Below, piece by piece: positions 1-51,730 of a stretch of 64,000 bases of DNA. Every line of letters starts with the position of its first letter. The stretch's first letter is position 1. The position numbers were made by a program, and so were the translations under genes. Under the pieces are notes generated by a model. The model saw only the letters and a list, made by a program, of their open reading frames with translations. It searched no databases and was not told the DNA's origin. The DNA comes from Escherichia coli (GTDB lineage: Bacteria > Pseudomonadota > Gammaproteobacteria > Enterobacterales > Enterobacteriaceae): assembly GCF_003790525.1 (NCBI RefSeq), contig NZ_CP033636.1, one strand, 5' to 3'.

Positions 1-464
1 GCCGTGTTCCAACCATGAAAGATCCCGTCTCCACAGCGAGTGTTAAAAGCAAGAATTTCATCCCTGACCTGGTAAGCGAGCACTTCTGGCATATCAATAA
101 ATTCAGGTAAGGAAAGAAGAATCCCATGGATAACTTCTCCGGTTAACTTACTCATAACCTCTTCCTCAGACAGGGCAGCGTCCGGGAACAAACACGACGG
201 AAGTGAAAAACAACATAGGTCAAGACCAAGAGCAGCCCTTCCTGCGTCGTAGCCTTCTTCATTAACGACAAAACGAAAGAATTTTTCAGCCTCACCCAGT
301 AATGTTGACGGTCCTTCAGACGGAACTTCAATACCACTGAAGACTTTATCGGTCCAGTTGGTAAATGGACTGGTGAAAACCCAACAAATTAAGGATAACG
401 CCAGCTCTTCCTTAAACATACGTTCAGTGCCGGTTGTTCTGGAAAGTTGCTTTTGAGTACTCAT
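1..464 (-). CDS. hypothetical protein (partial; C-terminus lies beyond window start)
   Basis: Manual minus-strand translation: ATG at 464-462 with in-frame stop immediately upstream (470-468); frame stays open down to position 3 (about 154 codons, MSTQKQLSRTTGTERMFKEELALSL...). Missing from ORF track because truncated by window edge. No recognisable motif. Confidence 0.4.
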   Translation of the reverse strand, partial: MSTQKQLSRTTGTERMFKEELALSLICWVFTSPFTNWTDKVFSGIEVPSEGPSTLLGEAEKFFRFVVNEEGYDAGRAALGLDLCCFSLPSCLFPDAALSEEEVMSKLTGEVIHGILLSLPEFIDMPEVLAYQVRDEILAFNTRCGDGIFHGWNT

Positions 465-537
465 GTTTTACCTGTTGCATGAAATTATTGATGTTATATA
501 AACACAACCGGCATTTTATCTAATAGGTTTGAAAACA

Positions 538-795
538 CTAAAAATCGCAAATGCTGGTACCTTTCTGTTTTAAGAGATTTTCAAGGTAAAGTGAGCCGAG
601 ATCAATTGGCTGGTTCTCTTCAAGACAGGCTCGCACAAGATCTTCAATAGAGACCGAATCAACCCCCCTTCCCTGTAAAATTTCTTTAGCAGATGCCAGC
701 GTTTTATGAACGCTTCGACTTAGTTGTAATCTGACTTGTGTGCGGGTATCAAAAAGACAATCTTCTGTGACACTTTGTGAAACGGTTCTACTCAT
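538..795 (-). CDS. hypothetical protein (85 aa)
   Basis: ORF track; same strand and tight spacing with neighbouring minus-strand ORFs; no motif recognised. Confidence 0.35.
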   Translation of the reverse strand: MSRTVSQSVTEDCLFDTRTQVRLQLSRSVHKTLASAKEILQGRGVDSVSIEDLVRACLEENQPIDLGSLYLENLLKQKGTSICDF

Positions 796-802
796 TGAAA
801 AA

Positions 803-1393
803 TCACTCCATTTCTGGGATCGAATGAAAATTAACAGCTATAGATGTATCAGGTTTCCCATTTTCTACGATACTCAACCACGTACGCGCTGAGATTTGTT
901 GTTCACAGACGAGTATGTAACCTGTTCCCTGTTGATGATGTAGCTCAAGAGCTTTTAGGATAGGCCCTGAATGAGGTCCGAGAGCATCACGCGTGTGAAT
1001 AAGCGTTTGCTCTGGCAATACGTTGCTAAGCATAGACAGCAGAACATTACGCTCATCCTCATTATCCGACAAAACAAGAATTATACGAAAACCCGTTTTT
1101 ATACGAAATCTGATCTCTGAAACTAACTTTCTTAATCTTAATTTATATATGACCAGGCGGAATCGAGTCATCAGTAAAGAAACCACTGTGAAGATAACGA
1201 TTACTGCGCCATATTTTGACCTGTAGAACCACCAGTTAAGGCCTCCAGCAACTATCAGGATTAACATTAAAATTAAACTCCCATAGAAAAAAAGTGCTGG
1301 GTAGCGAGTTGTCTTTCCTTCAATTAGTGCTGAGGCAAATATCAAAATGGATATTCCGTAAATTACCCAGTCAAAAATACTTTCTCCAATCAT
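803..1393 (-). CDS. hypothetical membrane protein (N-terminal hydrophobic helices plus soluble C-terminal domain)
   Basis: ORF track 196 aa; N-terminal ~90 aa strongly hydrophobic (ILIFASALI..., LILMLILIVAGGLNWWF, AVIVIFTVVSLLM) followed by charged linker and soluble domain. Confidence 0.5.
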   Translation of the reverse strand: MIGESIFDWVIYGISILIFASALIEGKTTRYPALFFYGSLILMLILIVAGGLNWWFYRSKYGAVIVIFTVVSLLMTRFRLVIYKLRLRKLVSEIRFRIKTGFRIILVLSDNEDERNVLLSMLSNVLPEQTLIHTRDALGPHSGPILKALELHHQQGTGYILVCEQQISARTWLSIVENGKPDTSIAVNFHSIPEME

Positions 1394-1437
1394 TCTTTAG
1401 TGAACATCCTTAAAAGTGGAAATGTAGGTTTATGGGT

Positions 1438-1743
1438 TTATGCATTTTCCTGATGGCCTTGACAACCAAGGATTTCACAGAAATTGTCACAGTGTGAAGC
1501 TGTAACAAAGCGCTCTCCACGTTCGAATCGCTCAACCAAATCCTTTCTTACTTCACTTCCAGGTTTCTGGAAGATGTACTCAAGCTGGAGATCCTCGGCC
1601 GTAGAAAGTAGTCGTTCTATGCTGAAATCAACATGGTAAAAGCAAAACTGATTATCAACCGGGGGAAAGTTGCTTTTGGTACTGTTCTCGTTTTTGGATT
1701 TTAGTTCATTCATGAGCTCTCCTTGGTTGAGAACAGTATACAA
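1438..1743 (-). CDS. hypothetical protein (101 aa) with Cys/His cluster near C-terminus
   Basis: ORF track; C-terminal HCDNFCEILGCQGH cluster; no further assignment possible. Confidence 0.4.
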   Translation of the reverse strand: MYTVLNQGELMNELKSKNENSTKSNFPPVDNQFCFYHVDFSIERLLSTAEDLQLEYIFQKPGSEVRKDLVERFERGERFVTASHCDNFCEILGCQGHQENA

Positions 1744-1912: not shown

Positions 1913-1937
1913 AAAAAAAAGGCACGGAAACCGTGCC
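1913..1937 (-). terminator. putative intrinsic terminator closing the long minus-strand operon
   Basis: GGCACGG-AAA-CCGTGCC hairpin (1921-1937) adjacent to A8 run on plus strand, i.e. hairpin followed by U8 on the minus-strand transcript, 40 nt downstream of the stop of the 1977-2939 gene. Confidence 0.55.
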
Positions 1938-1976: not shown

Positions 1977-2939
1977 TCAAGCAGCTTGTGAAACTGAATC
2001 TCCAACTGCAAGATTTAAATTTCTTAGGTTATCGAAAACTTCAGATACTAAGTCATTACGGTCGTGGATTTTAATCCGCCCACCGGTTAACTCTGAAACA
2101 TAAACGGTATGGCAGAGGTCAGTAACCACTTCGCCGTATTCATCAACGACTTCCAAAGATGCAATCATCGGAATATAAGAAGCCGCAGCATAGCTCTCAT
2201 AAATACTTATTATGGAGTCATTGTTGCGTCGAGAAATTACCCTACCAGAAGGTAAAGCCTCATCTTCCATATAGCAATCAGATAGGTCCTCACAGAAGTC
2301 ATTTTCTTTAAGTGAAATATTAAGGGTCAATTCACTGTTGATAGAGCGTGAATAAGAATATTCACTCAGTTTATAGCAAGCCAAACTAATATCACTAAAA
2401 GTTTCATAAGCTTTATAGAGGCTCGATGTTATAGACTCAGATACAAATGTTATTAGTCCAATAAAATGAGTATCCCAGAACTGTTGCAAAGCAAAACGGG
2501 CAATCATAACCTGACCATCAACCTGCATCAGTCTGTTATATTCATCCCGGTCATAACCTTTCGACTGAGAAACATCATTAGACATGCTAAGAACTTCACT
2601 ACAAACATCATCATATTCAAAACGACTAGTTGCAAAGTGTTTTCCTGAAATTTCAAGGTACTGACCAGAGACTGCGTCAAACACCTCAAGAAAGTAACAG
2701 AGTCGCGATTTTAAAGATTCTCTGTTTAAAGCTTCTATTTCATTCTCAGAGATACTATCGACATATAAATCAACAACATTCTTGAGTTCAATAGCTTTGA
2801 TATTACAGGTAAAAGAAAGCTCGTCACTTTGACAATGGCAAACACTTAATACTATATCCGCCTCATCAAAATCTATGCCAAGATAACTCAGAACTGCTCG
2901 GACATAGTTTTTATCATCAGATGAATGTGTCATATACAC
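1977..2939 (-). CDS. hypothetical protein, member A of tandem ~300-aa paralog family
   Basis: ORF track 320 aa; shares clear sequence blocks with the next gene upstream (VDGQVMIARFALQQFWDTHF vs VDGKVLVAKFALKQFFHSDF; DRNDLVSEVFDNLRN vs DRTLLITEAFDDFRN). Confidence 0.6.
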   Translation of the reverse strand: MYMTHSSDDKNYVRAVLSYLGIDFDEADIVLSVCHCQSDELSFTCNIKAIELKNVVDLYVDSISENEIEALNRESLKSRLCYFLEVFDAVSGQYLEISGKHFATSRFEYDDVCSEVLSMSNDVSQSKGYDRDEYNRLMQVDGQVMIARFALQQFWDTHFIGLITFVSESITSSLYKAYETFSDISLACYKLSEYSYSRSINSELTLNISLKENDFCEDLSDCYMEDEALPSGRVISRRNNDSIISIYESYAAASYIPMIASLEVVDEYGEVVTDLCHTVYVSELTGGRIKIHDRNDLVSEVFDNLRNLNLAVGDSVSQAA

Positions 2940-3104: not shown

Positions 3105-4043
3105 TCATTGAGACGCGTTACGAAAATCGTCAAAAGCTTCAGTTATTAGTAATGTGCGATCAGTTACTCTGTATCGGTCATTACTTTCGAGAGATACGTA
3201 AGTTGAATGCGAAGAATCACAGACAACACGCCCTCTTTTATTGATCAATCTTACTTCCATCATCACCGGCACATTGATAATTGAAGCAACATCGGTATAG
3301 AGGGATATGAGGGCATCATTGTCACAATATAACGCCCCGTTCCCATCAAATGTATCGTTAAACTTAATATATATATCTGGCATATTTGCCGGATAATCAT
3401 CAGTATTGAAATCAATGCATAACTTTAAGTCATCATTAATACGGCGATTAATCTTATGCTGCCCTACACGTACAAAGCCATGTTCAACAGCTTTGATAAT
3501 CCTTAAAGTTTCATTAAGACAATCTGTAATTCTTTTCTCGACAAATGAGATAAAGTCACCAAAGTCGGAATGAAAAAACTGTTTAAGTGCAAATTTCGCA
3601 ACTAACACTTTCCCATCCACCTTCATTTTATCGAGATAAAGATTTCTTATAGCATCAGTAGAAGAATTAGCTTTAGATAACTCTTCACAGTCATTAATAA
3701 TCATTGAAACAATATCAATAACTTTAACTGGGCTTAAAGTATTACTATATCCGCGAATATCAAACGTAAAAAATCCGAAATTCTTAAATACTCCAAGAAA
3801 ATAAATTATTTTTTGTTTCAAAAGAATAGAATCGGAGTAAGATGCGTTGTGCTTTATTAGCTCAGATATGTAGAGATCCAACATACAATTTAAATTATCG
3901 ATATCTACATCGTAATCAAAGGTTACTTTGTCGAACGAAGTATCAGATAATTGAACGGTTATATCGTCAGCGGAAACATTAAGGCCTAAATTTTGATAAA
4001 GAAAGGCACTAACAAATTCCACGTGGTCAGATTCTTTAAACAT
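3105..4043 (-). CDS. hypothetical protein, member B of tandem ~300-aa paralog family
   Basis: ORF track 312 aa; paralogous to 1977-2939 (see shared blocks). Confidence 0.6.
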   Translation of the reverse strand: MFKESDHVEFVSAFLYQNLGLNVSADDITVQLSDTSFDKVTFDYDVDIDNLNCMLDLYISELIKHNASYSDSILLKQKIIYFLGVFKNFGFFTFDIRGYSNTLSPVKVIDIVSMIINDCEELSKANSSTDAIRNLYLDKMKVDGKVLVAKFALKQFFHSDFGDFISFVEKRITDCLNETLRIIKAVEHGFVRVGQHKINRRINDDLKLCIDFNTDDYPANMPDIYIKFNDTFDGNGALYCDNDALISLYTDVASIINVPVMMEVRLINKRGRVVCDSSHSTYVSLESNDRYRVTDRTLLITEAFDDFRNASQ

Positions 4044-4109: not shown

Positions 4110-5030
4110 TTAATTATAAAAGAGTTCTTCAGAAGGTACATGCATTTCTGGTTTGAACTGTTTTAAGGAGTTGTTTATAGCTTTTCGATATAACCCTGAA
4201 GAGTGTGGCTTAAACATTTGATATTCCGTAACGAGCAGAGGAGACGTAAAGCATCCTAAGTTCACTAGTGAAATACTTGATGTTTCTTCACAAACATCTA
4301 ATTCAGCGTATATCCGCCTCTTCATTACCCTGCCTGCTAAATAGCGACGAACATGATTTATAAACTTGTCCGCATCTGATATAGAATTAACTATATAATC
4401 AGATGTGACTATCTGATTAGATACAGTTTCAGGTATAGCTTCGGCTATTATTTTTACGTTCATTTCATAATCAACACTATGGAAGCAAGCAAGAATTTGT
4501 GGCTTCGCGCTTTCTAAAATCTTTTCAAGAACAGAAAAAATCAGAGAGAACTCGTTTAAAATTCGCTTTTGTATAAGTCCATGTAGATGTTTTATGAAAG
4601 GAGAACCGTGTTCAACAAGGCCTAGTATAAGATCCTTAGAGGCCAAATCTGAGCGGTAATAAACGTATTCTAGATTATCCCGGTTAAATCCTTTGAAAAG
4701 CAAATCAGGCTGCTCTGAGACCAGTCGTAAATGAGTTGAAGCTATAGAAACTTCAAAACGAAAGTTCGCGAGATTTACAGGACCTGCTTTTAATGTAGCC
4801 GCTTCGGAAAAATAAATGAAAAGAGGATGCAAATCATCGTTACCACTGTAAAGATGGTCTGCACCCTTAAGATATTTCACCAAATGAGGTAGAAAAGATA
4901 TTACTGGAATATCAGCCACAAATCGAATATGCCGAAATGGTTTTGAATCCAAATATATATTTTCCACTACAGCGCCAACAAAACCCATTTTAACAAGAAT
5001 AGATTCAACTAACTTTTGTATAGCATTCAT
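4110..5030 (-). CDS. hypothetical protein (~300-aa family, divergent member)
   Basis: ORF track 306 aa; N-terminal motif KLVESILVKMG resembles N-termini of the 5099-6049 and 6105-6983 products. Confidence 0.55.
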   Translation of the reverse strand: MNAIQKLVESILVKMGFVGAVVENIYLDSKPFRHIRFVADIPVISFLPHLVKYLKGADHLYSGNDDLHPLFIYFSEAATLKAGPVNLANFRFEVSIASTHLRLVSEQPDLLFKGFNRDNLEYVYYRSDLASKDLILGLVEHGSPFIKHLHGLIQKRILNEFSLIFSVLEKILESAKPQILACFHSVDYEMNVKIIAEAIPETVSNQIVTSDYIVNSISDADKFINHVRRYLAGRVMKRRIYAELDVCEETSSISLVNLGCFTSPLLVTEYQMFKPHSSGLYRKAINNSLKQFKPEMHVPSEELFYN

Positions 5031-5098
5031 TTCAATACCCTCTTAATAGAGGGATTTCTCCCATAGGGAGAAATCCCTATGGGAGAAAATAATTTTAA

Positions 5099-6049
5099 TT
5101 AATAATTATAGCGAAGCGCATGTTCTTTTTCACTAAGATGGTTTTCATATTCCGACTTACCAGAACTTAAACACTCTTTGAAAAAGACCTTTGAAAAATT
5201 CTTCAAGTCACTTCGGTTATTAATTTCTTTGTCAGACATCAACTTAGCTGAGTGTGAGGTATCAACAGGCCCCAACCACCATTCATATTTAATATAAACA
5301 CAATTGGTTTGTGTATGTCCATTTAGAAATCGTTTTGCATTTCTAAGTATTTTTCTACAACCGTTAAGGTCTGAAAGTAAGATATCTGGAGCAATGAGCT
5401 CTTCCAGAATATGACCAGGTAAGCCTTTCCTAAAAAGCTCAACATCGTAACTACAATACCAGTCACGATAATTAAAAGCTTTAATAAGTCTTTCAGGTGT
5501 ATCCAAAGATATCTTATTCAGGATTTTTAATGCAAAGCATACAGCATCTTTTAACAACTCGTGCACCTCAACATTGATAAATGAGAAAAACGAGCTTAAT
5601 TCTTTCTCTAAGGAATTATACAACTTACCGTAAATATCCTGAGAAAAAAGATACTGCAATCTTTCTTTATTATAAGTGCAATTCGAAATTGAATAGACTT
5701 CTCCTCTTTCGATTTTGCACCCTTCCCTTAAAACTATAGGAAACCTCAAATGGTTAACAAAGAAAGAATGATTCTTTCTTTGCTTCAAAGCATCTAATTG
5801 AAATTTCGTAATTTCCTCCAGATTTGCATCTTCAAAACCTGGAAAGGGAATATCACAGAAACAAGAACTATATGCTTTTGCTGATTCATACATAAACTCC
5901 AGTGAAACATCAGCATCAAAAGACATACCAGAGAACATGCCCTGCCCATTGTCTAAAAATGTAATGTTTTTAACCTGTATTTTTTTATGTTGAACAACCA
6001 AAAAGGCATTAATGATTTTTTCGATAATTTTCATGTGATCCTCTCTCAA
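5099..6049 (-). CDS. hypothetical protein (~300-aa family, divergent member)
   Basis: ORF track 316 aa; N-terminal KIIEKIINAFLV motif; true start may be the internal Met at residue 6. Confidence 0.55.
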   Translation of the reverse strand: MREDHMKIIEKIINAFLVVQHKKIQVKNITFLDNGQGMFSGMSFDADVSLEFMYESAKAYSSCFCDIPFPGFEDANLEEITKFQLDALKQRKNHSFFVNHLRFPIVLREGCKIERGEVYSISNCTYNKERLQYLFSQDIYGKLYNSLEKELSSFFSFINVEVHELLKDAVCFALKILNKISLDTPERLIKAFNYRDWYCSYDVELFRKGLPGHILEELIAPDILLSDLNGCRKILRNAKRFLNGHTQTNCVYIKYEWWLGPVDTSHSAKLMSDKEINNRSDLKNFSKVFFKECLSSGKSEYENHLSEKEHALRYNY

Positions 6050-6094: not shown

Positions 6095-6104
6095 TATAAT
6101 TTAA

Positions 6105-6983
6105 TTAAAAATCTGTAAGACCTAAATCTTTATTTCTACCACAAACTGTAGAAGATATAAGACGTTTTACTCGCTTTCGAGCACTTCGGCCTGACGTATC
6201 TTTCAAGTACATCGGTAATGACAATGATGAAATTTGATTACTTCGCTTATGATGGCAGACTATATAGCCCTGCCTCCACCCCGAACGCACAAACTCACGG
6301 ATGCGGTTAATATATGCCGAAGCTTGAGATTTTGTACTTATCGATTCAGAACACTTTAAGTTCTGTTCGATAGAGTAAAGCTCAGCCGCCATGAATTTCA
6401 CCTCATACAGCTCATCGCCATAACTTATAGTTTTCAACAGCTCTTCCTTTTCCCGAATGAAAAATACTTGCTGCATTCCAAGGATCAGGTCATAGGCCTC
6501 TCGAAAGAGGTCGATAAGCTTATTACGAACATAAATCATAAACTCCTCAAAGTGCTGAAGCCAGAAATAAGCCGCATTACTTATTTGTGAATTGTGAGAA
6601 CAAACAAGCCCTTTAGCAAGCTCGACCTCTTCCTCCCGAAAAGTAAAGTTACTTTTCTTAAACCGACTTTGTTCAAAAATGCTTTGATGCATTTCTATCC
6701 ATACAGAAACAAAACCGAGGGATTCAAATTCTTCGTTTAACAAATGTAAACTTTCGAAGATTTTCTGAATTTCGATCCCGATGTCATATGACAGTGGACA
6801 TTCTTTTATAGAATAAACATAACCGGGTAGGAAGTGAGATAAATGCTCAGTTCGCAAATATAAACTGAATTTAAGTTCTGTCAGTGGTTGTTTCAAAGAT
6901 AACTTAGATGATTCGCTTATATTTACTGGTTCAACGCCATTTCTAATCAAAATAGCTTTTACCAGGTCCGTAGCTAACTTCAT
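6105..6983 (-). CDS. hypothetical protein (~300-aa family, divergent member)
   Basis: ORF track 292 aa; N-terminal DLVKAILIRNGV motif shared with neighbours. Confidence 0.55.
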   Translation of the reverse strand: MKLATDLVKAILIRNGVEPVNISESSKLSLKQPLTELKFSLYLRTEHLSHFLPGYVYSIKECPLSYDIGIEIQKIFESLHLLNEEFESLGFVSVWIEMHQSIFEQSRFKKSNFTFREEEVELAKGLVCSHNSQISNAAYFWLQHFEEFMIYVRNKLIDLFREAYDLILGMQQVFFIREKEELLKTISYGDELYEVKFMAAELYSIEQNLKCSESISTKSQASAYINRIREFVRSGWRQGYIVCHHKRSNQISSLSLPMYLKDTSGRSARKRVKRLISSTVCGRNKDLGLTDF

Positions 6984-38550: not shown

Positions 38551-39800
38551 GCGTTAACTCCTTGCTTAGCTGAAAAACTTTTTATTTCATTTATAAATTG
38601 TTGATATACCTGTAATACAGATTCTTCTGCGACATCAAGTTGCTTTGCGGAACAAAGTTCCTCTGATTTTTTGATATCAAGCACTGTACGCCCTTTGGAA
38701 GCAGCTGCCTTAAATGCTTCAGAATTTTTTATGTTAGCGGACATCAAAAGGTCCTGAACAGTTCTGATTAATTTATCCAAAACTATTCTTTCATATGGAC
38801 TTTTGTCATCAACATTGACAGCAAGAACTTTGAACCATTTTAAATTATCGCCCTTACTTGGTGATTGTTTAAACCTTTCACTTATTGTAAGCATGAAGTC
38901 TGTAGTAGAGGCGTAATCATATTCACGTGGTGACACTGCGACAAGAATCCCATCGGCCGCTTCGTCAGCAGCCCAGATCAAAGGTGAATCTTCAGGTGGA
39001 GTGTCTATAATAATCAAATCATAGTTCTGCTTCAGTACCGGTAAGATAACTTCCTTGAAACGTAGTAACAAAGACGTTCGTTCTTCTCTAGAACATTGCC
39101 AGTATTTATCTTTAAAACGAGCATCTGTCGGAAATGCCGTTATCACGTCCAAGTTTGGCAGATGCGTTGAAAAAGGCATATTAGTGATGATTTCTTCTTC
39201 AGAGAATCCTGAATCTAAATATTTTTTATACTCAGAATTTTCTTCATAAATTCCAAGGATTGCATCAATTGCTGTAAGGAAGACATCATCTTCTGAGACA
39301 CTTTGAATCATGCTGCTTCCAATCGAACCTTGTGGGTCCCATTCGATCATTAATACACGTGCATTCAGTTGTAGATCTAAAGCAGCTGCTACTGCTAAAG
39401 CTACAGATGTAGTGCTTTTCCCTGTACCGCCTTTATGATTCTGAGTAACAATAGCTCTGCTAAAGTAATGATCGCGGTACTTGGGATAACCCAGGGCATC
39501 CATTATTTTTTGAACATCCCAGCGGGTGTAAAGATGATTTTTGTTTTGATAAATAGGTGCACCAACAACTTCTTTTTCTTCTAAGTCCGAAAGTATTTTA
39601 TTGAACGTTACTCGTGACTTCCCAAAAAAATCAGAGAGATTTTTTTTATTTAAACAGTGGTTGTAGATCAGTCTATCAACACCATCAACACTATCATCAG
39701 AAACAGATACTCTTGATGAAGCCATCAGAGATTCCTTAAGAGAAATCTGCTCGCTTTTCATGCGCTGACCAACGAGGGCGATCTTTTCAAGTAAATTCAT
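38547..39800 (-). CDS. parA: ParA/SopA-family partition ATPase (type Ia, long N-terminal extension)
   Basis: ORF track 417 aa; deviant Walker A KGGTGKSTT, ~110-aa N-terminal extension typical of SopA/P1 ParA-type proteins. Confidence 0.85.
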   Translation of the reverse strand: MNLLEKIALVGQRMKSEQISLKESLMASSRVSVSDDSVDGVDRLIYNHCLNKKNLSDFFGKSRVTFNKILSDLEEKEVVGAPIYQNKNHLYTRWDVQKIMDALGYPKYRDHYFSRAIVTQNHKGGTGKSTTSVALAVAAALDLQLNARVLMIEWDPQGSIGSSMIQSVSEDDVFLTAIDAILGIYEENSEYKKYLDSGFSEEEIITNMPFSTHLPNLDVITAFPTDARFKDKYWQCSREERTSLLLRFKEVILPVLKQNYDLIIIDTPPEDSPLIWAADEAADGILVAVSPREYDYASTTDFMLTISERFKQSPSKGDNLKWFKVLAVNVDDKSPYERIVLDKLIRTVQDLLMSANIKNSEAFKAAASKGRTVLDIKKSEELCSAKQLDVAEESVLQVYQQFINEIKSFSAKQGVNA

Positions 39801-39868: not shown

Positions 39869-40199
39869 ATTTCATTGTTATACGTACAATTCTATCCTTT
39901 GTTTCAATCCTAAGCTAATGTTTGTTTACTTTTTTATGATTTTTTGTGAGCTTAACTTGCAGATGAGAGCTCAGACTCTCTAGTCCATACCTAATGCTCA
40001 TTCTTTTTAAACCACGATTCTTGTCGACTTCTCTACGCTTTGACGTTATGAGCTCCATTAATGAATCTTCACGCCTACCCTATTTCTTGCTTAGACCCTA
40101 AAATCTATCTCACCGGTGTGCTGATTTACGTTTCCTAACTGTGAATCGTTGTCGTCAGTCCAGTCTAAAGATATGAGGTGTTAATCTCTTGAGTAGGCC

Positions 40200-43100
40200 C
40201 ACTACGAATTATGGGAGCAGAGTTAGCAACCTAGCCCAGAACTGAAACCCAACTTCAGGAGGCAACCCCAGTGTGGCGATTAAGGGGGTTAAATCTGCCA
40301 GCGGCTGACAGTGTCCTAGCTGCTGCTCAGTCACACCACGCCCTGATTAAATCTCCTGCCCGGTATTGTAAGGACCGAAAAAAGCCCGTGCATTTGTGTC
40401 GGCAGACCGGCATGAAGGAATATGACGTTAATCTGTATCAGCAGGCACTTTTCGCATGATGGGAGCAAGTGATAGCAACCCCGCCCAGAACGGAAGGCCA
40501 GCATCAGGACAAAACCCAAGTTTGGCGATTAAGGGGGTTAAATTTGCAAGCGGATGACAGTGCCCCAGCTGCTGCTCAGTCACACCACGCCCTGAGTAAA
40601 TCTCTCGCCAGGTCTTGTTATGACCGAAAATAGCCCAAGCACTGGTGTCGGCAGACCGGCATACAGGAATATGACGTTAATCTGTATCAGCAGATACATT
40701 TCGCATTATGGGAGCAAGAGATAGCAACCCAGCCCAGAACTGAAGGCCAGCATGAGGACAGAACACCAGTTTGGCGATTAAGGGAGTTAAATATGCAAGC
40801 TGCTGATAGTGCCCCAGCTCCTGCTCAGTAACACCACGCCCTGATAAAATCTCCTGCCCGGTAATGTAATGACCGAAAAAAGGCCGTGCACTGGTGTCGG
40901 CAGACCGGCACGCAGGAAAATGACGTTAATCTGTATTAACAGACACATTTCGCATTAGGGGAGCAAGTGATAGCCACCCAGCCCAGAACTGAAGGCCAGC
41001 ATCAGGACAGTACCCCAGTTTGGCGATTAAGGGGGTTAAATCCGCCAGTGGCTGTAAGTGCCCGAGCGGTGTATAAGAAATATTTCCCGAAGGACAATCT
41101 TTCGCTCGTACGATGAATAAAGTGTTCAACCCGGGAGCGGGGATCACTTAACCTGCTTAGCCTAAATCTTACGTCATTCTCTAAACGGAGTTTAAGCTTA
41201 ATGGTCCTTAGAAAGTTAAAAGGACTACCCATAATGACGTCTTGAGATGGCGAATAAAGGGTTTTAATCTGCCAGCGGCTGACAGTGCCCCAGCTTCTGC
41301 TCAGTCACACCACGCCTGATTAAATCTCCCGCCAGGTCTTATTATGACCGAAAATAGTCCCCGTGCACTAGAGTCGTAAGACCGGCATACAGGAATGAAG
41401 CTTAAATCTTTATCAGGTTGCAAGGTTCGCATCATGGGAGCAAGGGCCTTGAACTGTAGGTTAACATCAGAAAATCCCAGATTGGCGATTAAGGGGGTTA
41501 AATCTGACAGCGACTGAAAGTGCCTTCAGATGCTGCTCAGGTATATTACAACCTGAAAAAATCAAGCGTCTGTTCATGCGAATATCGAAAAAAGCTATGC
41601 ACCAGTTTCGGCAGACCGGCATGGAGTAATGAGACGTTAATCTGTATCAGCTGGCGCATTTCGTATCATGGGAGCAAGTGTTAGCAACCCTGCCCAGGAC
41701 GGAAGGACACTATCAGGACTGATCCCAGTTTGGAGATTAAGGGGGTTAAATCTGCCAGTGGCTGACAGAGCCTTCTGATGCTGCTCAGACATACTATGCA
41801 ACGATAAAATCACCCGTCCGTCCTTGTGATTATCGGAAAAAGCCATGCACCGGAGTCGGCAGATCGGTATGCAGTAATGTGACTTTAATCTGTATCAGCA
41901 GGCGCAATGGGAGCAAGTGTTAGCAACCGAGCCCAGGACGGAAGGACACTATCAGGACTGAACCCCAGTGTGGCGATTAAGGGGGTTAAATCTGCAAGCG
42001 GATAACAGTGCCCCAGCTGCTGCTCAGTCACACCACGCCCTGATTAAATCTCTCGCCAGGTCTTGTTAGGACCGAAAATAGCCCGAGCACTGGTGTCGGC
42101 AGACCGGCATACAGGAATACGACGTTAATTTGTATCAGCAGGTACATTTCGCATTATGGGAGCAAGTGATAGCAACCCAGCTCAGAACTGAAGGCCTGCA
42201 TGAGGACAGAACACCAGTTTGGCGATTAAGGGGGTTAAATCTGACAGCGGCTGACAGTGCCTTCAGATGCTGCTCAGGCATACTACTCTCCCTGATATAA
42301 TCTCCCATATGTTCTTGAGATCGTCGGAAATCGCCCATGCACCGGTGTCGGCAGACCGGTATGCAGTAATGTGATTTTAATCTGTATCAGCAGGCACATT
42401 TCGTATCATGGGAGTAAGTGTTAGCAAACCGAACCCCGCCCAGCACGGAAGGTCAATATCAGACCAGAATCCCAGTTTGGCGATTAAGGGGGTTAAATCT
42501 GCAAGCTGCTGACAGTGCCCCAGCTTCTGCTCAGTCACACCACGCCCTGATAAAATCTCCTGCCCGGTAATGTGATGACCGAAAAAAGCCCGTGCACTGG
42601 TGTTGGCAGACCGGCACGCAGGAATATGACGTTAATCTGTATCAGCAGTTACATTTCGCATTATGGGAGGAAGTGATAGCCACCCAGCCCAGAACTGAAG
42701 GCCAGCATCAGGACAGTACCCCAGTTTGGCGATTAAGGGGGTTAAATCCGGCAGCGGCAGTAAGTGCCCGTGCTGTGTTAAAGGAATATTTCCCTAAGGA
42801 CAATCTTCCGATCGGCCTTTTGTATAAAGTGGTCACCCCGGGAGCGGGGATCACTTTACCTGCTTAGCCTAAATCTTACGTCAATCACTATCCGGAATTT
42901 TAGCTTAATGGTCCTGAGCAAGTTAAAAGGGGTACCCCTAATGACGTCCCCAGATGGCGATAAAGGAGTTAATTCCGCCTTCGGCTTACAGTGCCGCAGC
43001 TGCTGCTAAGGAACACCACGCCCTGATTAAATCTCCCGCCTGGCCTTGTGATGACCAAAAATTGTCCGTGCACTGGCGTCGTAAGACCGGCATACAGGAA

Positions 43101-43636: not shown

Positions 43637-46318
43637 CTACGCGGCCAAACCCGCTGCTACTTCTTGAGCATAGAGAATTTCTATTGCCTCGCCATAGCTA
43701 CAATTCTCGCGGCTTTGAATTTCCCATAATTTACTCCTGTCAGCACTATCCGTAGTAAAACAAAGCTCCATTTTCCGGTCTACGTATAACCGACAGATCT
43801 CTTGGAAGTTTTCGAACCTGACTAACATCTCTGAAAACACCTTTTTGACTGTACGAATATTTTTCATTCGTTCATATTCTGCATCTGAAGTAGAAAAATA
43901 TTTATTAGCCTTCATTGCTTCAATGCTTTCTTTTTCTTGTTTCATGATTATCTTCCAAGGCGAGTTAGCAGTCAGGGCCCGGCCAACAGAAGAAGTAAAA
44001 TAATCTTCAAACGACTGTGTGATACAGATGCCAGCGCAGTTTGTTTTCCTGAACCTACGCCATGCCGCTTCGAGGAAGGAAGAGAAGAATTGGTTTGATT
44101 GATTTCCGGCACCTGATGAATTATCAGGACGAATGTACTCCCAAGCTTCATCTAGGATGAACAAGCGACGACGCCCATCTTTTTTGATGAACATTGCATG
44201 CTGAGCAGCCTGAATGATAGACATTAAAACAACTGTCTGAAGGTGGGGGGTGCCTTTTAGCTCCTCCAGTTCCAAAACAATAAATCTGCTGTCGAAGTTG
44301 ATTGGAGGCAACGTATCGGTAAACCGGTGCCCATAAATTCCACCTTCGCACCATGCTCCGAGTTGCTCCCCAATATCCTTTATACGTTTGTCTTCATGCT
44401 TCTTGCAACGCAGAGCAAAGCCGGTTATTGAACCGGTCCGACCTGATTTTCTGGATTCCTGGTACTCTTCTGCAATAAGCTGAAGCATCACTGATTGTTG
44501 ATAATCATCGATAAGGCCTTTCTCTGAAGCCATAATTTTTAGCTGATTCAGAACCATTATGGTCTGAGCAACTTTGTCTTTTTCTGCATCGTTTGAAGTT
44601 GATTCACCGGTAAATTCAGGTGCTTCGTTAAATACATCGTCGTTAACAGTGATGTCAGTTAGGAAGGCAAAGGGATTTAGGGTGAAGTCAGGGGTTTTAC
44701 CGAAATCAATAAATTGACTGTTTGTATATTGTTCCGCAATCCCCTGGTAAGAACGCCCCACGTCCACTACAAAAACTTGAGCACCATCAGGATCATCATC
44801 TGGGTATTCGTTTTCTAAAAAATGCTTAAATGTTGAGCGATAATGAACGAGGTTATTAGATCGCGGTCCAGCTCCAAGATAGTTATTGATTAGATATGCT
44901 GTCCAGAATGACTTGCCTGCACCTGACGTTGCACCAATAACCATGTTATAGCTTGCAGAAGTCTTGAAAATATCAAGTCCCATGAGTTGACCTTCACGAG
45001 AAACTAAACTCAGTACTGGTCTATCTGTATTACCTTTCCAGGGCCCAAAGATCGGCGTCATATGAGCCGCTCCGGTGTTGCTCACTACTTCGGATCGGTC
45101 AAGGTCGAAAATTGTCTTTGGGTCATTGCACATTGGCAGACATGACATAAATGACGGGAAAACGATAAAGGAATCATCTGCTACTTTGACCCGGCTTTCG
45201 AGGTAAAAGGATTTGAGATCGTTAGCTGCTGTCTGCACAGAATTGGCATTACTACCCATAACAGTGAAAGTAAGATACCCTCTTAAAAGCTTTGCGCCAT
45301 CCTCAAGCTCGCGAGTTACGGCCATGTAGTCATTATCCATATCCCGCAGGCGAGGGCAGAATGTGACAACTGAAGGTATACTTGCCTGTTTATTAGTGAT
45401 TGCTTTGTAGCGGACGTTTTCTTTTGACAACTTGAGCGGATCGGCAAACTGAACAGTCTGAGTGATCATAAATGGGCTGAAAATTGTCTTACGTCCATGC
45501 ATCCAGTTAACTACTAACTCATACATACAACCGAAATTGACGTATTCAGGAAACTTTACAACGGAAAGTTGTTTGAAGTAACGATGCTCAGATTCGTCGT
45601 CACTTTGTGTGACTGATGAGAAATGATTTTCTGTGACTGTATACTTACGGCCGGGAACGTTAACTTGTTCATTAAGCCTTTTCATAGTGTTAACGTCTAT
45701 AAAACCTTCAGCCCACCGAGAGTTCTTTCCGGGGTTTACGACCTTATCTATACAATAGAGCCAGTTTTCTGCATCGACCTTAAACGGATGCAGTCCAATC
45801 GTAATTAACTTACTTACAAGTTCAGAGTAAAGTGAATCGATACGCGAATGTTCCAGCTCGGTAGGAAGGGCAGACTGTAAAGGAATCGATAGCGAGATCC
45901 ATACCTGAAAATCCCTCAACATAAGGTTATCATGATCAGGTTTTAAAGGCTTATGCATACTTCTGTCGTAGTAGTCCAACTGATAACCATTAAGCAGATC
46001 TGCTTTAAGCTTATCGTTCCCAGTCATACGCCCACCTCGCACAGCTGACCAAGCACTAAGCTGTAAAGTCAAGTCTGGCAATGCAGTCAGAGATATTTGA
46101 CAGACAGTATCTGTAGGAAAATCCATTTTGAACATTTCAGCAAGAACATCTTGCTGATTATCAAAAACTCCAGGTGATGGATTACAGATAAACATAAACC
46201 CTAATCTGTTGCCATCAATCAAAAAATAGTGAGTCCCTGCTAATTGATCGTAAACAGGGATAAACCCACCTAATTGATGGCGATTTAAACCGCTATTGTA
46301 ATTATTGATAGCTTCCAT
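43637..46318 (-). CDS. traC: TraC (VirB4-like) conjugative transfer ATPase
   Basis: ORF track 893 aa; Walker A GATSGAGKS, Walker B-like FILDEAW; size and position after traV typical of F-type TraC. Confidence 0.8.
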   Translation of the reverse strand: MEAINNYNSGLNRHQLGGFIPVYDQLAGTHYFLIDGNRLGFMFICNPSPGVFDNQQDVLAEMFKMDFPTDTVCQISLTALPDLTLQLSAWSAVRGGRMTGNDKLKADLLNGYQLDYYDRSMHKPLKPDHDNLMLRDFQVWISLSIPLQSALPTELEHSRIDSLYSELVSKLITIGLHPFKVDAENWLYCIDKVVNPGKNSRWAEGFIDVNTMKRLNEQVNVPGRKYTVTENHFSSVTQSDDESEHRYFKQLSVVKFPEYVNFGCMYELVVNWMHGRKTIFSPFMITQTVQFADPLKLSKENVRYKAITNKQASIPSVVTFCPRLRDMDNDYMAVTRELEDGAKLLRGYLTFTVMGSNANSVQTAANDLKSFYLESRVKVADDSFIVFPSFMSCLPMCNDPKTIFDLDRSEVVSNTGAAHMTPIFGPWKGNTDRPVLSLVSREGQLMGLDIFKTSASYNMVIGATSGAGKSFWTAYLINNYLGAGPRSNNLVHYRSTFKHFLENEYPDDDPDGAQVFVVDVGRSYQGIAEQYTNSQFIDFGKTPDFTLNPFAFLTDITVNDDVFNEAPEFTGESTSNDAEKDKVAQTIMVLNQLKIMASEKGLIDDYQQSVMLQLIAEEYQESRKSGRTGSITGFALRCKKHEDKRIKDIGEQLGAWCEGGIYGHRFTDTLPPINFDSRFIVLELEELKGTPHLQTVVLMSIIQAAQHAMFIKKDGRRRLFILDEAWEYIRPDNSSGAGNQSNQFFSSFLEAAWRRFRKTNCAGICITQSFEDYFTSSVGRALTANSPWKIIMKQEKESIEAMKANKYFSTSDAEYERMKNIRTVKKVFSEMLVRFENFQEICRLYVDRKMELCFTTDSADRSKLWEIQSRENCSYGEAIEILYAQEVAAGLAA

Positions 46319-50455: not shown

Positions 50456-51730
50456 TTATTTTCTGATTAGACTTGGTCTGGTTGTAACCCGGGCCTCGCG
50501 TTCCTTGAACAATTTATCCCGGACTATGTAAAGCTCTGTTTCTTCTCCCGGTTGCAGGTATGCTTTATCAAATAAAGCACTTGCAATAACGCCTTCTGCC
50601 ATACACTGCTGATCAGCAACGATTTGACCGTATGGTTTATCGTTTTTCACAAGAATTACATCAATAAGTTCACGTGAGCCAACCAGTCTCTGACCGAGCT
50701 TTGCATACATATTAAAGTTACATGGGGACTGCTCTGACGCAGGAATACGAGAAAGTCGGTCCTGTTGTAAACTGAATCCTGAAGGGACCTCACCAAGAGC
50801 CACAGGAGTCAATAAATCAATGATTCTTTGTTTATGATCGTCTTGTTTTGGATCCGATGGAGCCAGTTCTTCTGACTGGGAGCGGGCCAACATTTCCTCA
50901 TAGTTTTGCTTATCCAATGAGGTTTCACGTTTGGCTTGCATAGATGGGCTTAAAGATGTAGTAACTGAAATCATCGCACCGGGAACATCAAGCGGTACCA
51001 GGGTCAGGTTATAGGTCGATTCAGGTACCTGATCTTCCGACAACATAATCCCGATTGGTTTATCGGTATTAGTTGAAATAAAGACATCGCCACCATTAAC
51101 AAATATGCTTGCCTCTTCAGCAGGGGTAGAAGTGCTGACAGAAGCATTCTTGAAGCTGGTCGATATTCTGTTTTGAAGTCCTCGTGAAACTGGCAGTACC
51201 ACATTCCCACCAGGCGGCACATTTACACGCTGAACTTCTTTATATCGGTTACGAGCTTCGACATAAAGTTCATCGGCTTTTGACGTGGCGGTCGCATTGG
51301 TTGCATTCTGCTGGGAAGAGGTACCTGTTGGTCTCCCATAGCTATCAATTGCACCAGAGCGGGTCTGTGCGTCAAATCCGGGGAGACTAGGATTATTTGA
51401 TAATGCTCCAGTAATAGCGCTTACCGCAGGCGAAGCATTGCTGGCTGGGGAAAGTTGCACGGTAGGGAGATCAGTTGTAGGTTTTTGTCCCTGCGCATTA
51501 CCGGCTTCACTAAGGTTTGTTTGTGCACCTGACTGTTCAGAACCAGCTTGACCCGGAATAATGGCTTTTGCAGCTCCATTCTGAAATCCGTCAGCACCAA
51601 CTGGCATTACAACCGGGTTATTAATTGTTGCTGGCAATTGGTATTCTTCAGCGATTACGCAGTTCGAAGTCGTGAGCATGATCAATGCGGTAATTGCGTT
51701 GAACCCTAAGCCCTTTTTTTTAATCATCAC
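50456..51730 (-). CDS. traK: TraK-like (VirB9-like) secreted conjugal transfer protein
   Basis: ORF track 424 aa; signal peptide; assignment by synteny (between traE and traB). Confidence 0.55.
   Translation of the reverse strand: MMIKKKGLGFNAITALIMLTTSNCVIAEEYQLPATINNPVVMPVGADGFQNGAAKAIIPGQAGSEQSGAQTNLSEAGNAQGQKPTTDLPTVQLSPASNASPAVSAITGALSNNPSLPGFDAQTRSGAIDSYGRPTGTSSQQNATNATATSKADELYVEARNRYKEVQRVNVPPGGNVVLPVSRGLQNRISTSFKNASVSTSTPAEEASIFVNGGDVFISTNTDKPIGIMLSEDQVPESTYNLTLVPLDVPGAMISVTTSLSPSMQAKRETSLDKQNYEEMLARSQSEELAPSDPKQDDHKQRIIDLLTPVALGEVPSGFSLQQDRLSRIPASEQSPCNFNMYAKLGQRLVGSRELIDVILVKNDKPYGQIVADQQCMAEGVIASALFDKAYLQPGEETELYIVRDKLFKEREARVTTRPSLIRK

What the first reader, a model, noticed from the sequence alone, without database searches (positions are those of the whole stretch)
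1..464. Edge-truncated gene missed by the ORF track
Manual translation shows an uninterrupted minus-strand frame from the ATG at 464 to the window start. The 61-aa ORF called at 152-337 lies in a different frame within this interval and is probably a shadow ORF.
Basis: seen in the sequence. Interest (0 to 1): 0.2.

Follow-up and report, generated by a model that had tools for sequence, protein, structure and literature searches.

The report
Edge-cut IncHI2 plasmid backbone gene
The open frame at the left edge of the window is a real, already annotated gene of unknown function from the backbone of IncHI2 resistance plasmids, cut 24 codons short by the window boundary; it is ordinary, not a discovery.

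Summary
The minus-strand frame from the ATG at 464 to base 3 is open for 154 codons, and it is the only one of the six frames in 1-464 without a stop. The ORF lister skipped it only because it drops ORFs that run off the window.

Window 1-520 is 100% identical to E. coli IncHI2 plasmid pSA186_MCR1. There the frame runs 24 more codons to a stop and is annotated as a 178-aa hypothetical protein (WP_000107168.1). More than 1,000 plasmid records carry it at 95% identity or more.

It is a real gene:
- dN/dS is 0.27 against an 87%-identical relative.
- Third-codon positions dominate the differences to distant relatives.
- The IncHI1 orthologue was detected by published mass spectrometry.

The 152-337 ORF is a same-strand, +1-frame shadow ORF that carries stops in relatives.

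Function is unknown. There is no Pfam, NCBIfam, PHROG, PADLOC or PDB sequence match. A confident AlphaFold model (pLDDT 82) has no fold neighbour in the PDB or BFVD. The gene always sits in a conserved IncHI module of small membrane and soluble proteins, usually with plasmid tus, about 120 kb from the relaxase. My best guess, at low confidence, is a non-catalytic cytoplasmic partner within that module.

The parts
1..464 (-). First 154 of 178 codons (codons occupy 3-464; bases 1-2 begin codon 155) of the IncHI2 backbone gene annotated as hypothetical protein WP_000107168.1. The last 24 codons and the stop lie beyond the window edge.
   Evidence: Open frame. 100% identity to pSA186_MCR1, where the CDS is annotated. 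dN/dS 0.27. Third-position bias 100 vs 36/30.
471..473 (-). AGG Shine-Dalgarno-like triplet 6 nt upstream of the ATG (context ACAGGTAAAACATG).
   Evidence: Sequence read. ACAGGTAAA is kept in the IncHI1 and Photorhabdus relatives.
493..506 (-). Conserved intergenic motif TGTGTTTATATAAC in the 73-nt spacer between the upstream 85-aa gene and this gene. It may be an internal promoter or regulatory site (inference only).
   Evidence: Kept in relatives whose synonymous sites are saturated. Single copy in the window, so not a repeated operator. Not called by the sigma-70 consensus scan.
152..337 (-). 61-aa shadow ORF in frame +1 of the real gene; not a gene.
   Evidence: Listed mechanically. The equivalent frame carries stops in L015 and L002.
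538..795 (-). Upstream module gene, 85 aa, soluble (WP_001371933.1, hypothetical).
   Evidence: Homologues sit in the same position in 4 of the 5 relatives compared; no match at E<=1e-3 in the Klebsiella locus L006. Only a sub-threshold TetR_N hit, E 0.075.
803..1393 (-). Upstream module gene, 196 aa, about three N-terminal hydrophobic segments plus a soluble C-terminal part (WP_000578892.1, hypothetical).
   Evidence: Homologues in the same position in all loci compared.
1438..1713 (-). First gene of the conserved module, 91 aa as annotated in RefSeq. The mechanical ORF call extends it to 1743 (101 aa, TTG start).
1921..1937 (-). G+C-rich hairpin GGCACGGTTTCCGTGCC followed by T8. This terminator-like site separates the upstream paralogue array from the module, so the module may be its own transcription unit (inference).
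   Evidence: same site with T7 in pSA186_MCR1.

Best explanation
Shown: window 1-464 (minus strand) is the 5' 86% of a genuine protein-coding gene of the IncHI2 plasmid backbone. The full gene is 537 nt (178 aa) and is annotated in RefSeq as hypothetical protein WP_000107168.1. The window boundary cuts off its last 24 codons, which is why an ORF lister that ignores edge-running ORFs missed it. The overlapping 61-aa ORF is a frame +1 shadow.

Shown: the product is soluble, with no hydrophobic segment. It has a confidently predicted alpha/beta fold and belongs to a small, Pfam-less family confined to IncHI-like (MOBH relaxase, F-type pilus) plasmids. It is always embedded in the same co-oriented module: 91 aa / 196-aa membrane protein / 85 aa / this gene / ~145-aa membrane protein / (sometimes a ~200-aa protein) / usually plasmid Tus / ~300 aa / ~110-aa membrane protein.

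Inferred, with about 0.3 probability for this specific role: the protein is a non-catalytic cytoplasmic partner that acts by binding other products of this module, in a plasmid housekeeping role (replication termination or maintenance at the membrane). I do not think it is an enzyme, a toxin or a transfer-leading-region anti-defence factor.
For: Gene identity:
- The frame is open.
- Window 1-520 is 100% identical to pSA186_MCR1, where the CDS at 50897-51433 is annotated as 178 aa.
- 1,128 PLSDB plasmids and 281 E. coli RefSeq records (278 genomes) match window 1-1500, nearly all at 99% or more.
- R478, the IncHI2 reference plasmid, carries it as WP_000107167.1.

Coding:
- dN/dS is 0.27 against L015.
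- pN is 0.18-0.31 and pS 0.78-0.87, with third-position differences dominating, against L002 and L003.
- In Table S3 of PMC5390554 the IncHI1 orthologue was detected by mass spectrometry in all four plasmids studied. I mapped the gene by exact GC-fraction matches of six consecutive genes.

Protein:
- No 19-residue hydrophobic window reaches the 1.6 cut-off; the maximum Kyte-Doolittle value is 1.25.
- The AlphaFold model has pLDDT 81.6 and pTM 0.78.
- The only conserved polar residues are K18, R64 and E121; the rest are Gly, Pro and aromatics, with no obvious catalytic set.

Module: the neighbours were shown to be homologous by BLASTP across five diverged loci, and the gene order is the same.
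Against: DNA beyond base 1 of this particular window was not seen. The 24-codon extension is inferred from identical records. Frameshifted 169-aa alleles exist in some database entries, so I cannot formally exclude that this copy is broken downstream.

The functional part rests only on gene neighbourhood and on the absence of enzyme-like features. No experiment, homology or fold match supports it. AFDB fold libraries could not be searched.
Confidence: 0.9

Rival explanations
1. The open frame is a chance run without stops, or a decayed pseudogene, and encodes nothing.
For: From length alone, about 0.3 such 154-codon runs are expected per 64-kb window. Some database alleles are frameshifted to 169 aa.
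Against: dN/dS is 0.27. Third-position differences dominate and relatives down to 25% identity keep the length. The start and the Shine-Dalgarno-like site are conserved. Peptides of the IncHI1 orthologue were detected.
Confidence: 0.01
2. The 61-aa ORF at 152-337 is the real gene and the long frame is incidental.
For: It is the only ORF the mechanical lister reports in the interval.
Against: Its frame carries stops in the 87%-identical relative and in Photorhabdus. The substitution pattern fits the long frame. RefSeq annotates the long frame.
Confidence: 0.01
3. It is an accessory factor of plasmid replication termination that works directly with the co-encoded Tus protein, for example by modulating fork arrest at plasmid ter sites.
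For: tus (PF05472) lies one to three genes downstream, in the same orientation, in 7 of the 8 distinct loci examined. An IncHI2 paper notes tus and a putative ter site in this region (PMC5923156).
Against: Locus L012 keeps the module, including this gene and the ~300-aa gene, but has no tus. Chromosomal Tus acts as a monomer without partners (established knowledge). No DNA-binding motif was found in this protein.
Confidence: 0.15
4. It is an anti-defence or establishment protein, for example an acidic mimic or inhibitor of a host factor, expressed on entry into a new host.
For: It is found only on plasmids. It is acidic (pI 4.4-4.9) in the IncHI1/IncHI2 clade. It diverges faster than its module neighbours (36% vs 54% for the 196-aa membrane protein in L013). 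It has no enzyme signature and no known fold.
Against: The gene lies at 51 kb, whereas mobI, the MobH relaxase and traD lie at 170-177 kb of the 241.6-kb plasmid. It is therefore about 115-125 kb from the likely oriT in either direction. A more typical candidate leading region, with methyltransferases, hok and small same-strand ORFs, lies at about 130-165 kb. Acidity is not conserved in the Klebsiella clade, where pI is 5.5-8.8. There are no PHROG or PADLOC hits.
Confidence: 0.1
5. It forms a toxin-antitoxin-like pair with the upstream 85-aa protein.
For: A small upstream gene with a sub-threshold helix-turn-helix hit (TetR_N, E 0.075) is followed by a ~20-kDa protein, and the pair is conserved.
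Against: A conserved ~73-nt spacer separates them rather than the tight coupling usual for type II pairs. The putative toxin is acidic. No toxin or antitoxin family hit appears in Pfam, NCBIfam or PADLOC. The pair never occurs outside the larger module.
Confidence: 0.03

Closest known systems
RefSeq WP_000107168.1 (and WP_000107167.1 of reference plasmid R478), 'hypothetical protein' of IncHI2 plasmids
   Same: The 154 residues encoded in the window are identical to the pSA186_MCR1 protein WP_000107168.1; the window DNA matches at 520 of 520 bases. The gene order matches R478.
   Different: Nothing, except that the window holds only codons 1-154 of 178.
IncHI1 orthologue (UniRef entry V9SHG3_ECOLX; core gene no. 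21 in Table S3 of PMC5390554)
   Same: 178 aa, 57% identity, same position in the same module. Detected by mass spectrometry.
   Different: A different plasmid subgroup. Its function is equally unknown.
Klebsiella IncFIB/IncHI1B plasmid protein WP_004181762.1 (154 aa)
   Same: A homologue at about 25% identity over about 90% of the length, in the same module position upstream of a two-segment membrane protein and tus.
   Different: Shorter, with a deleted variable loop (residues ~45-58) and a basic rather than acidic pI (8.75).
Tus / Ter protein family (PF05472)
   Same: Encoded in the same co-oriented gene block in most loci.
   Different: No sequence relationship. The finding's protein matches no Pfam family, and the module persists without tus in L012.

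Membership tests
IncHI2 backbone hypothetical protein WP_000107168.1 | Sequence identity over the available length | tested here: met
   Window 1-520 is 100% identical to pSA186_MCR1. The translated 154 aa equal residues 1-154 of the annotated product.
IncHI2 backbone hypothetical protein WP_000107168.1 | Same genomic context (85-aa and 196-aa genes upstream; downstream Tus block in the reference) | tested here: met
   The upstream neighbours are inside the window and identical in order. The downstream part was seen only in the identical reference records.
IncHI2 backbone hypothetical protein WP_000107168.1 | Intact full-length frame (178 aa) in this particular molecule | not testable with these tools
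   The last 24 codons lie outside the window. This is inferred from more than 1,000 near-identical plasmids.
Any curated protein family (Pfam-A, NCBIfam, PHROGs, PADLOC) | Profile match at or near the curated threshold | tested here: not met
   No hit for the full protein at E<=10 (Pfam) or E<=1 (NCBIfam). All 19 family members scanned against Pfam gave only scattered single weak hits. PHROGs and PADLOC gave none.
Any solved or viral predicted fold | Significant structural similarity of the pLDDT-82 model | tested here: not met
Leading-region anti-defence genes of conjugative plasmids (Samuel et al. 2024, PMC11541004) | Location within the first tens of ORFs next to oriT on the leading side | tested here: not met
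   The gene is at 51 kb. mobI, the MobH relaxase and traD are at 170-177 kb of 241.6 kb. oriT itself was not mapped; its position is inferred from mobI and mobH.
Leading-region anti-defence genes of conjugative plasmids (Samuel et al. 2024, PMC11541004) | Encoded on the transferred strand and expressed early in the recipient | not testable with these tools
   This needs the oriT nick site and its polarity, plus expression data.
Type II toxin-antitoxin pair | Homology of either partner to a known toxin or antitoxin family, and tight translational coupling | tested here: not met
   No family hits. A conserved ~73-nt spacer separates the genes.

The most novel reading that the evidence does not exclude
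This Pfam-less family may have a fold with no solved or viral-predicted neighbour. Together with its invariably linked small membrane and soluble proteins, it could form a previously unrecognised IncHI-plasmid system. One possibility is a membrane-anchored apparatus that couples Tus-dependent replication termination, or plasmid maintenance, to the cell envelope.
Probability: 0.15. Interest if true: 0.4.

Novelty: already known. Interest (0 to 1): 0.08.

Why it matters
It matters little as a discovery. The gene is already annotated as a hypothetical protein in more than a thousand IncHI2 plasmid records, and it looked 'missed' only because of how the ORF track handles window edges.

Two minor points are worth keeping:
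- ORF tracks for windowed scans should report edge-truncated frames.
- The gene belongs to a strictly conserved, entirely uncharacterised eight-to-nine-gene block in the core of IncHI plasmids. These plasmids are major carriers of mcr-1 and other resistance genes, and published work counts 67 hypothetical genes among the 122 IncHI1 core genes (PMC5390554). That block would be a reasonable target for a deletion study.

Tried and rejected
- **Family scans.** Pfam, NCBIfam, PHROGs and PADLOC scans of the protein, its relatives and its neighbours gave nothing usable.
- **PDB sequence searches.** Neither the single sequence nor the profile found anything.
- **First AlphaFold run.** With 8 close sequences the model was unusable (pLDDT 46). 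It improved to 81.6 only after adding relatives at 25-35% identity, found by an exhaustive profile search and a second word-index search.
- **DNA-mimic idea from acidity.** Rejected, because the Klebsiella clade is neutral to basic.
- **Leading-region anti-defence idea.** Rejected on position.
- **Obligate Tus partner.** Weakened by L012, which lacks tus.
- **Ter-like or repeated operator reading of the conserved spacer motif.** Rejected. Only GTTGT resembles the Ter core and it is not conserved in IncHI1, and the motif is single-copy in the window.
- **Literature searches.** Searches for functional data (Tn-seq or TraDIS on IncHI plasmids, R27 or R478 tus region) found nothing specific to this gene.

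Full report
**Observation.**
Reading window 1-464 on the minus strand from the ATG at 464-462 gives 154 sense codons down to base 3, with no stop. Of the six frames in this interval it is the only one without a stop; the others carry 4 to 16.

With the window's base composition, a given frame stays open for 154 codons with probability about 4e-5. Across all frames of a 64-kb window that is about 0.3 such runs, so length alone is only suggestive.

The mechanical ORF list does not contain the frame. By its own description the tool leaves out ORFs that run off an end of the source. What it lists instead is a 61-aa GTG-started ORF at 152-337. That ORF is on the same strand, in frame +1 of the long frame. 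An AGG lies 6 nt upstream of the ATG.

**Where the sequence comes from, and what lies beyond the edge.**
Window 1-1500 matches 1,128 PLSDB plasmids, 1,050 of them at 99% or more. They are mostly conjugative plasmids of 150-390 kb from Escherichia, Salmonella and Enterobacter. It also matches 281 RefSeq E. coli records, almost all of them plasmids.

Window 1-520 is identical base for base to pSA186_MCR1, an mcr-1 plasmid. In that record the frame is annotated as a 537-nt CDS encoding the 178-aa 'hypothetical protein' WP_000107168.1. So only 24 codons and the stop lie outside the window.

The IncHI2 reference plasmid R478 carries the same gene as WP_000107167.1, in the same place.

**Is it really coding?**
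- Against a relative that is 87% identical in protein (L015, 90.5% nucleotide identity), dS is 0.246, dN is 0.066 and dN/dS is 0.27. The differences number 29 at third codon positions against 14 and 8 at first and second positions.
- Against relatives at 71% and 58% identity, synonymous sites are saturated (pS 0.78-0.87) while pN is 0.18-0.31. Third-position differences again dominate, for example 100 vs 36 and 30.
- Full-length relatives of 146-178 aa exist down to about 25% identity.
- The +1 frame that holds the 61-aa ORF is interrupted by stops in L015 and in the Photorhabdus relative, so it is a shadow ORF.
- Published proteomics gives independent support. In Table S3 of PMC5390554 (IncHI1 plasmids in S. 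Typhimurium), the hypothetical core gene three rows after tus in the table was detected in at least one growth condition for each of the four plasmids, with 1-2 peptides.
- I verified that this row is the orthologue. The GC fractions the table gives for six consecutive genes (0.500931 for this one) equal those computed from locus L007 to six decimals.

**What the protein is.**
It matches no family in Pfam, NCBIfam, PHROGs or PADLOC. Neither the single sequence nor a family profile matches any PDB sequence. Every database name for it and its relatives is 'hypothetical' or 'uncharacterized'.

It has no hydrophobic segment, with a maximum 19-residue Kyte-Doolittle value of 1.25.

An AlphaFold model from 8 close sequences was poor (pLDDT 46). 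With 19 sequences that include relatives at 25-35% identity, it became confident (pLDDT 81.6, pTM 0.78). The model is an alpha/beta protein with a low-confidence variable loop at about residues 45-58.

That model has no significant neighbour:
- Foldseek against the PDB: best E 0.86.
- BFVD: best E 0.35.
- The AlphaFold-database library could not be searched.

Family-wide invariant residues are K18, L23, W28, R64, G71, G75, G80, F86 and P165. G114, P120, E121, F140, G151 and W159 are nearly invariant. This pattern suggests a structural or binding role more than a catalytic one; that is my inference.

**Context.**
The family occurs only on IncHI-like plasmids with a MOBH relaxase and an F-type pilus:
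- IncHI2, at 95% identity or more: about 1,125 PLSDB records.
- IncHI1, at about 57% identity.
- Photorhabdus and other enterobacterial plasmids.
- Klebsiella IncFIB/IncHI1B plasmids, at about 25% identity.

In every locus examined it sits in the same co-oriented block: 91 aa / 196-aa membrane protein / 85 aa / this gene / ~145-aa membrane protein / sometimes a ~200-aa DUF2913-like protein / Tus (PF05472) / ~260-300 aa / ~110-aa membrane protein. An oppositely oriented tyrosine recombinase and hha follow.

BLASTP confirms that the neighbours are true homologues across five diverged loci. One distant locus, L012, keeps the block but lacks tus. None of the block's other proteins matches a characterised family.

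In pSA186_MCR1 the block lies downstream of the Tra2 genes (trhI and others) and of an ATPase / DUF3150 / VWA / DUF7146-toprim set. The mobI gene, the MobH relaxase gene and traD lie at 170-177 kb of the 241.6-kb circle, about 115-125 kb from this gene. A more typical candidate leading region lies at 130-165 kb.

A strong terminator-like hairpin at window 1937-1921 precedes the block. A 14-nt motif, TGTGTTTATATAAC at 493-506, is conserved in the 73-nt spacer just upstream of the gene.

**Most likely mechanism, and rivals.**
It is shown that the product is a soluble, conserved, expressed plasmid-core protein that co-inherits strictly with three small membrane proteins and several small soluble ones.

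From that I infer, with roughly 0.3 probability for this specific role, that it works as a non-catalytic cytoplasmic binding partner inside the block. The block probably serves plasmid housekeeping, meaning replication termination or maintenance at the membrane.

- **Direct Tus accessory role (0.15).** Adjacency suggests it. The tus-less locus weakens it, as does the fact that chromosomal Tus needs no partner (established knowledge).
- **Anti-defence or establishment role (0.1).** The acidity of the IncHI1/IncHI2 clade and its fast divergence relative to neighbours fit it. The distance from the relaxase counts against it, as do the basic Klebsiella homologues and the lack of any hit.
- **Toxin-antitoxin reading with the 85-aa gene (0.03).** It lacks any family support and the conserved spacer argues against it.
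- **Chance ORF, or the 61-aa ORF as the real gene.** Both are excluded by the conservation data.

**Comparison with known things, and verdict.**
The window fragment is identical to the N-terminal 154 residues of an already annotated RefSeq protein, so as a gene it is already known. It is not a member of any curated family or known fold that I could test.

The finding is correct but ordinary: an edge artefact of the ORF track over a hypothetical backbone gene. The only residual interest is that this gene and its whole conserved block in the IncHI core remain without any assigned function.

Noticed in passing
window 40180-42769: A 2.6-kb non-coding tandem array (period 249 bp, 10.6 copies, 70% matches) lies between parA (38547-39800, minus) and the TraC-family gene (43637-46318, minus). 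RefSeq annotates nothing in the equivalent ~4.3 kb of pSA186_MCR1, and the spacing differs by about 500 bp between the window and that record, which suggests copy-number variation. It may be a centromere- or iteron-like array.
   Followed up: partly
window 1977-2939, 3105-4043, 4110-5030, ~5098-6033, ~6104-6982 (all minus strand): Five tandem, co-oriented genes of 292-320 aa appear to be very diverged paralogues (13-27% identity to the first). None has a Pfam match. The array, with variable copy number, is also present in the IncHI1, Photorhabdus and other related plasmids.
   Followed up: partly
window 493-506 (minus strand): A motif, TGTGTTTATATAAC, sits in the 73-nt spacer upstream of the finding's gene. 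Both the motif and the spacer length are conserved in IncHI1, Photorhabdus and more distant relatives even though synonymous sites are saturated. It is single-copy in the window and was not called by the sigma-70 consensus scan.
   Followed up: partly
window 1921-1937 (minus strand): A strong terminator-like hairpin, GGCACGGTTTCCGTGCC, is followed by T8. The T-run is one base shorter (T7) in pSA186_MCR1; this is one of the differences behind the 99.9% identity over window 1-1500.
   Followed up: no
window 1438-1743 (minus strand): The mechanical ORF call gives 101 aa from a TTG at 1743. RefSeq annotates 91 aa, equivalent to 1438-1713. The true start is unresolved.
   Followed up: no
database relatives P0003, P0006, P0008, P0009 (169 aa): Several near-identical database alleles of the finding's gene switch into the +1 frame near codon 132 or 150 and end at 169 aa. 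These are either real frameshift alleles or assembly errors. In NZ_CP040806.1 an ISKpn26 interrupts the 1.5-kb stretch.
   Followed up: no
L013 and L012, compared with L001: Within the conserved module the finding's protein diverges faster than its neighbours. For example, it is 36% identical where the 196-aa membrane protein is 54% and Tus is 46% in the same locus.
   Followed up: no
pSA186_MCR1 record 130-165 kb (L016; outside the window): A long run of small same-strand hypothetical genes with two DNA methyltransferases, a PAPS-reductase-family protein, an HNH endonuclease, hok and DUF957 lies next to the mobI / mobH / traD region. It looks like the plasmid's leading-region, anti-defence-type island.
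   Followed up: no
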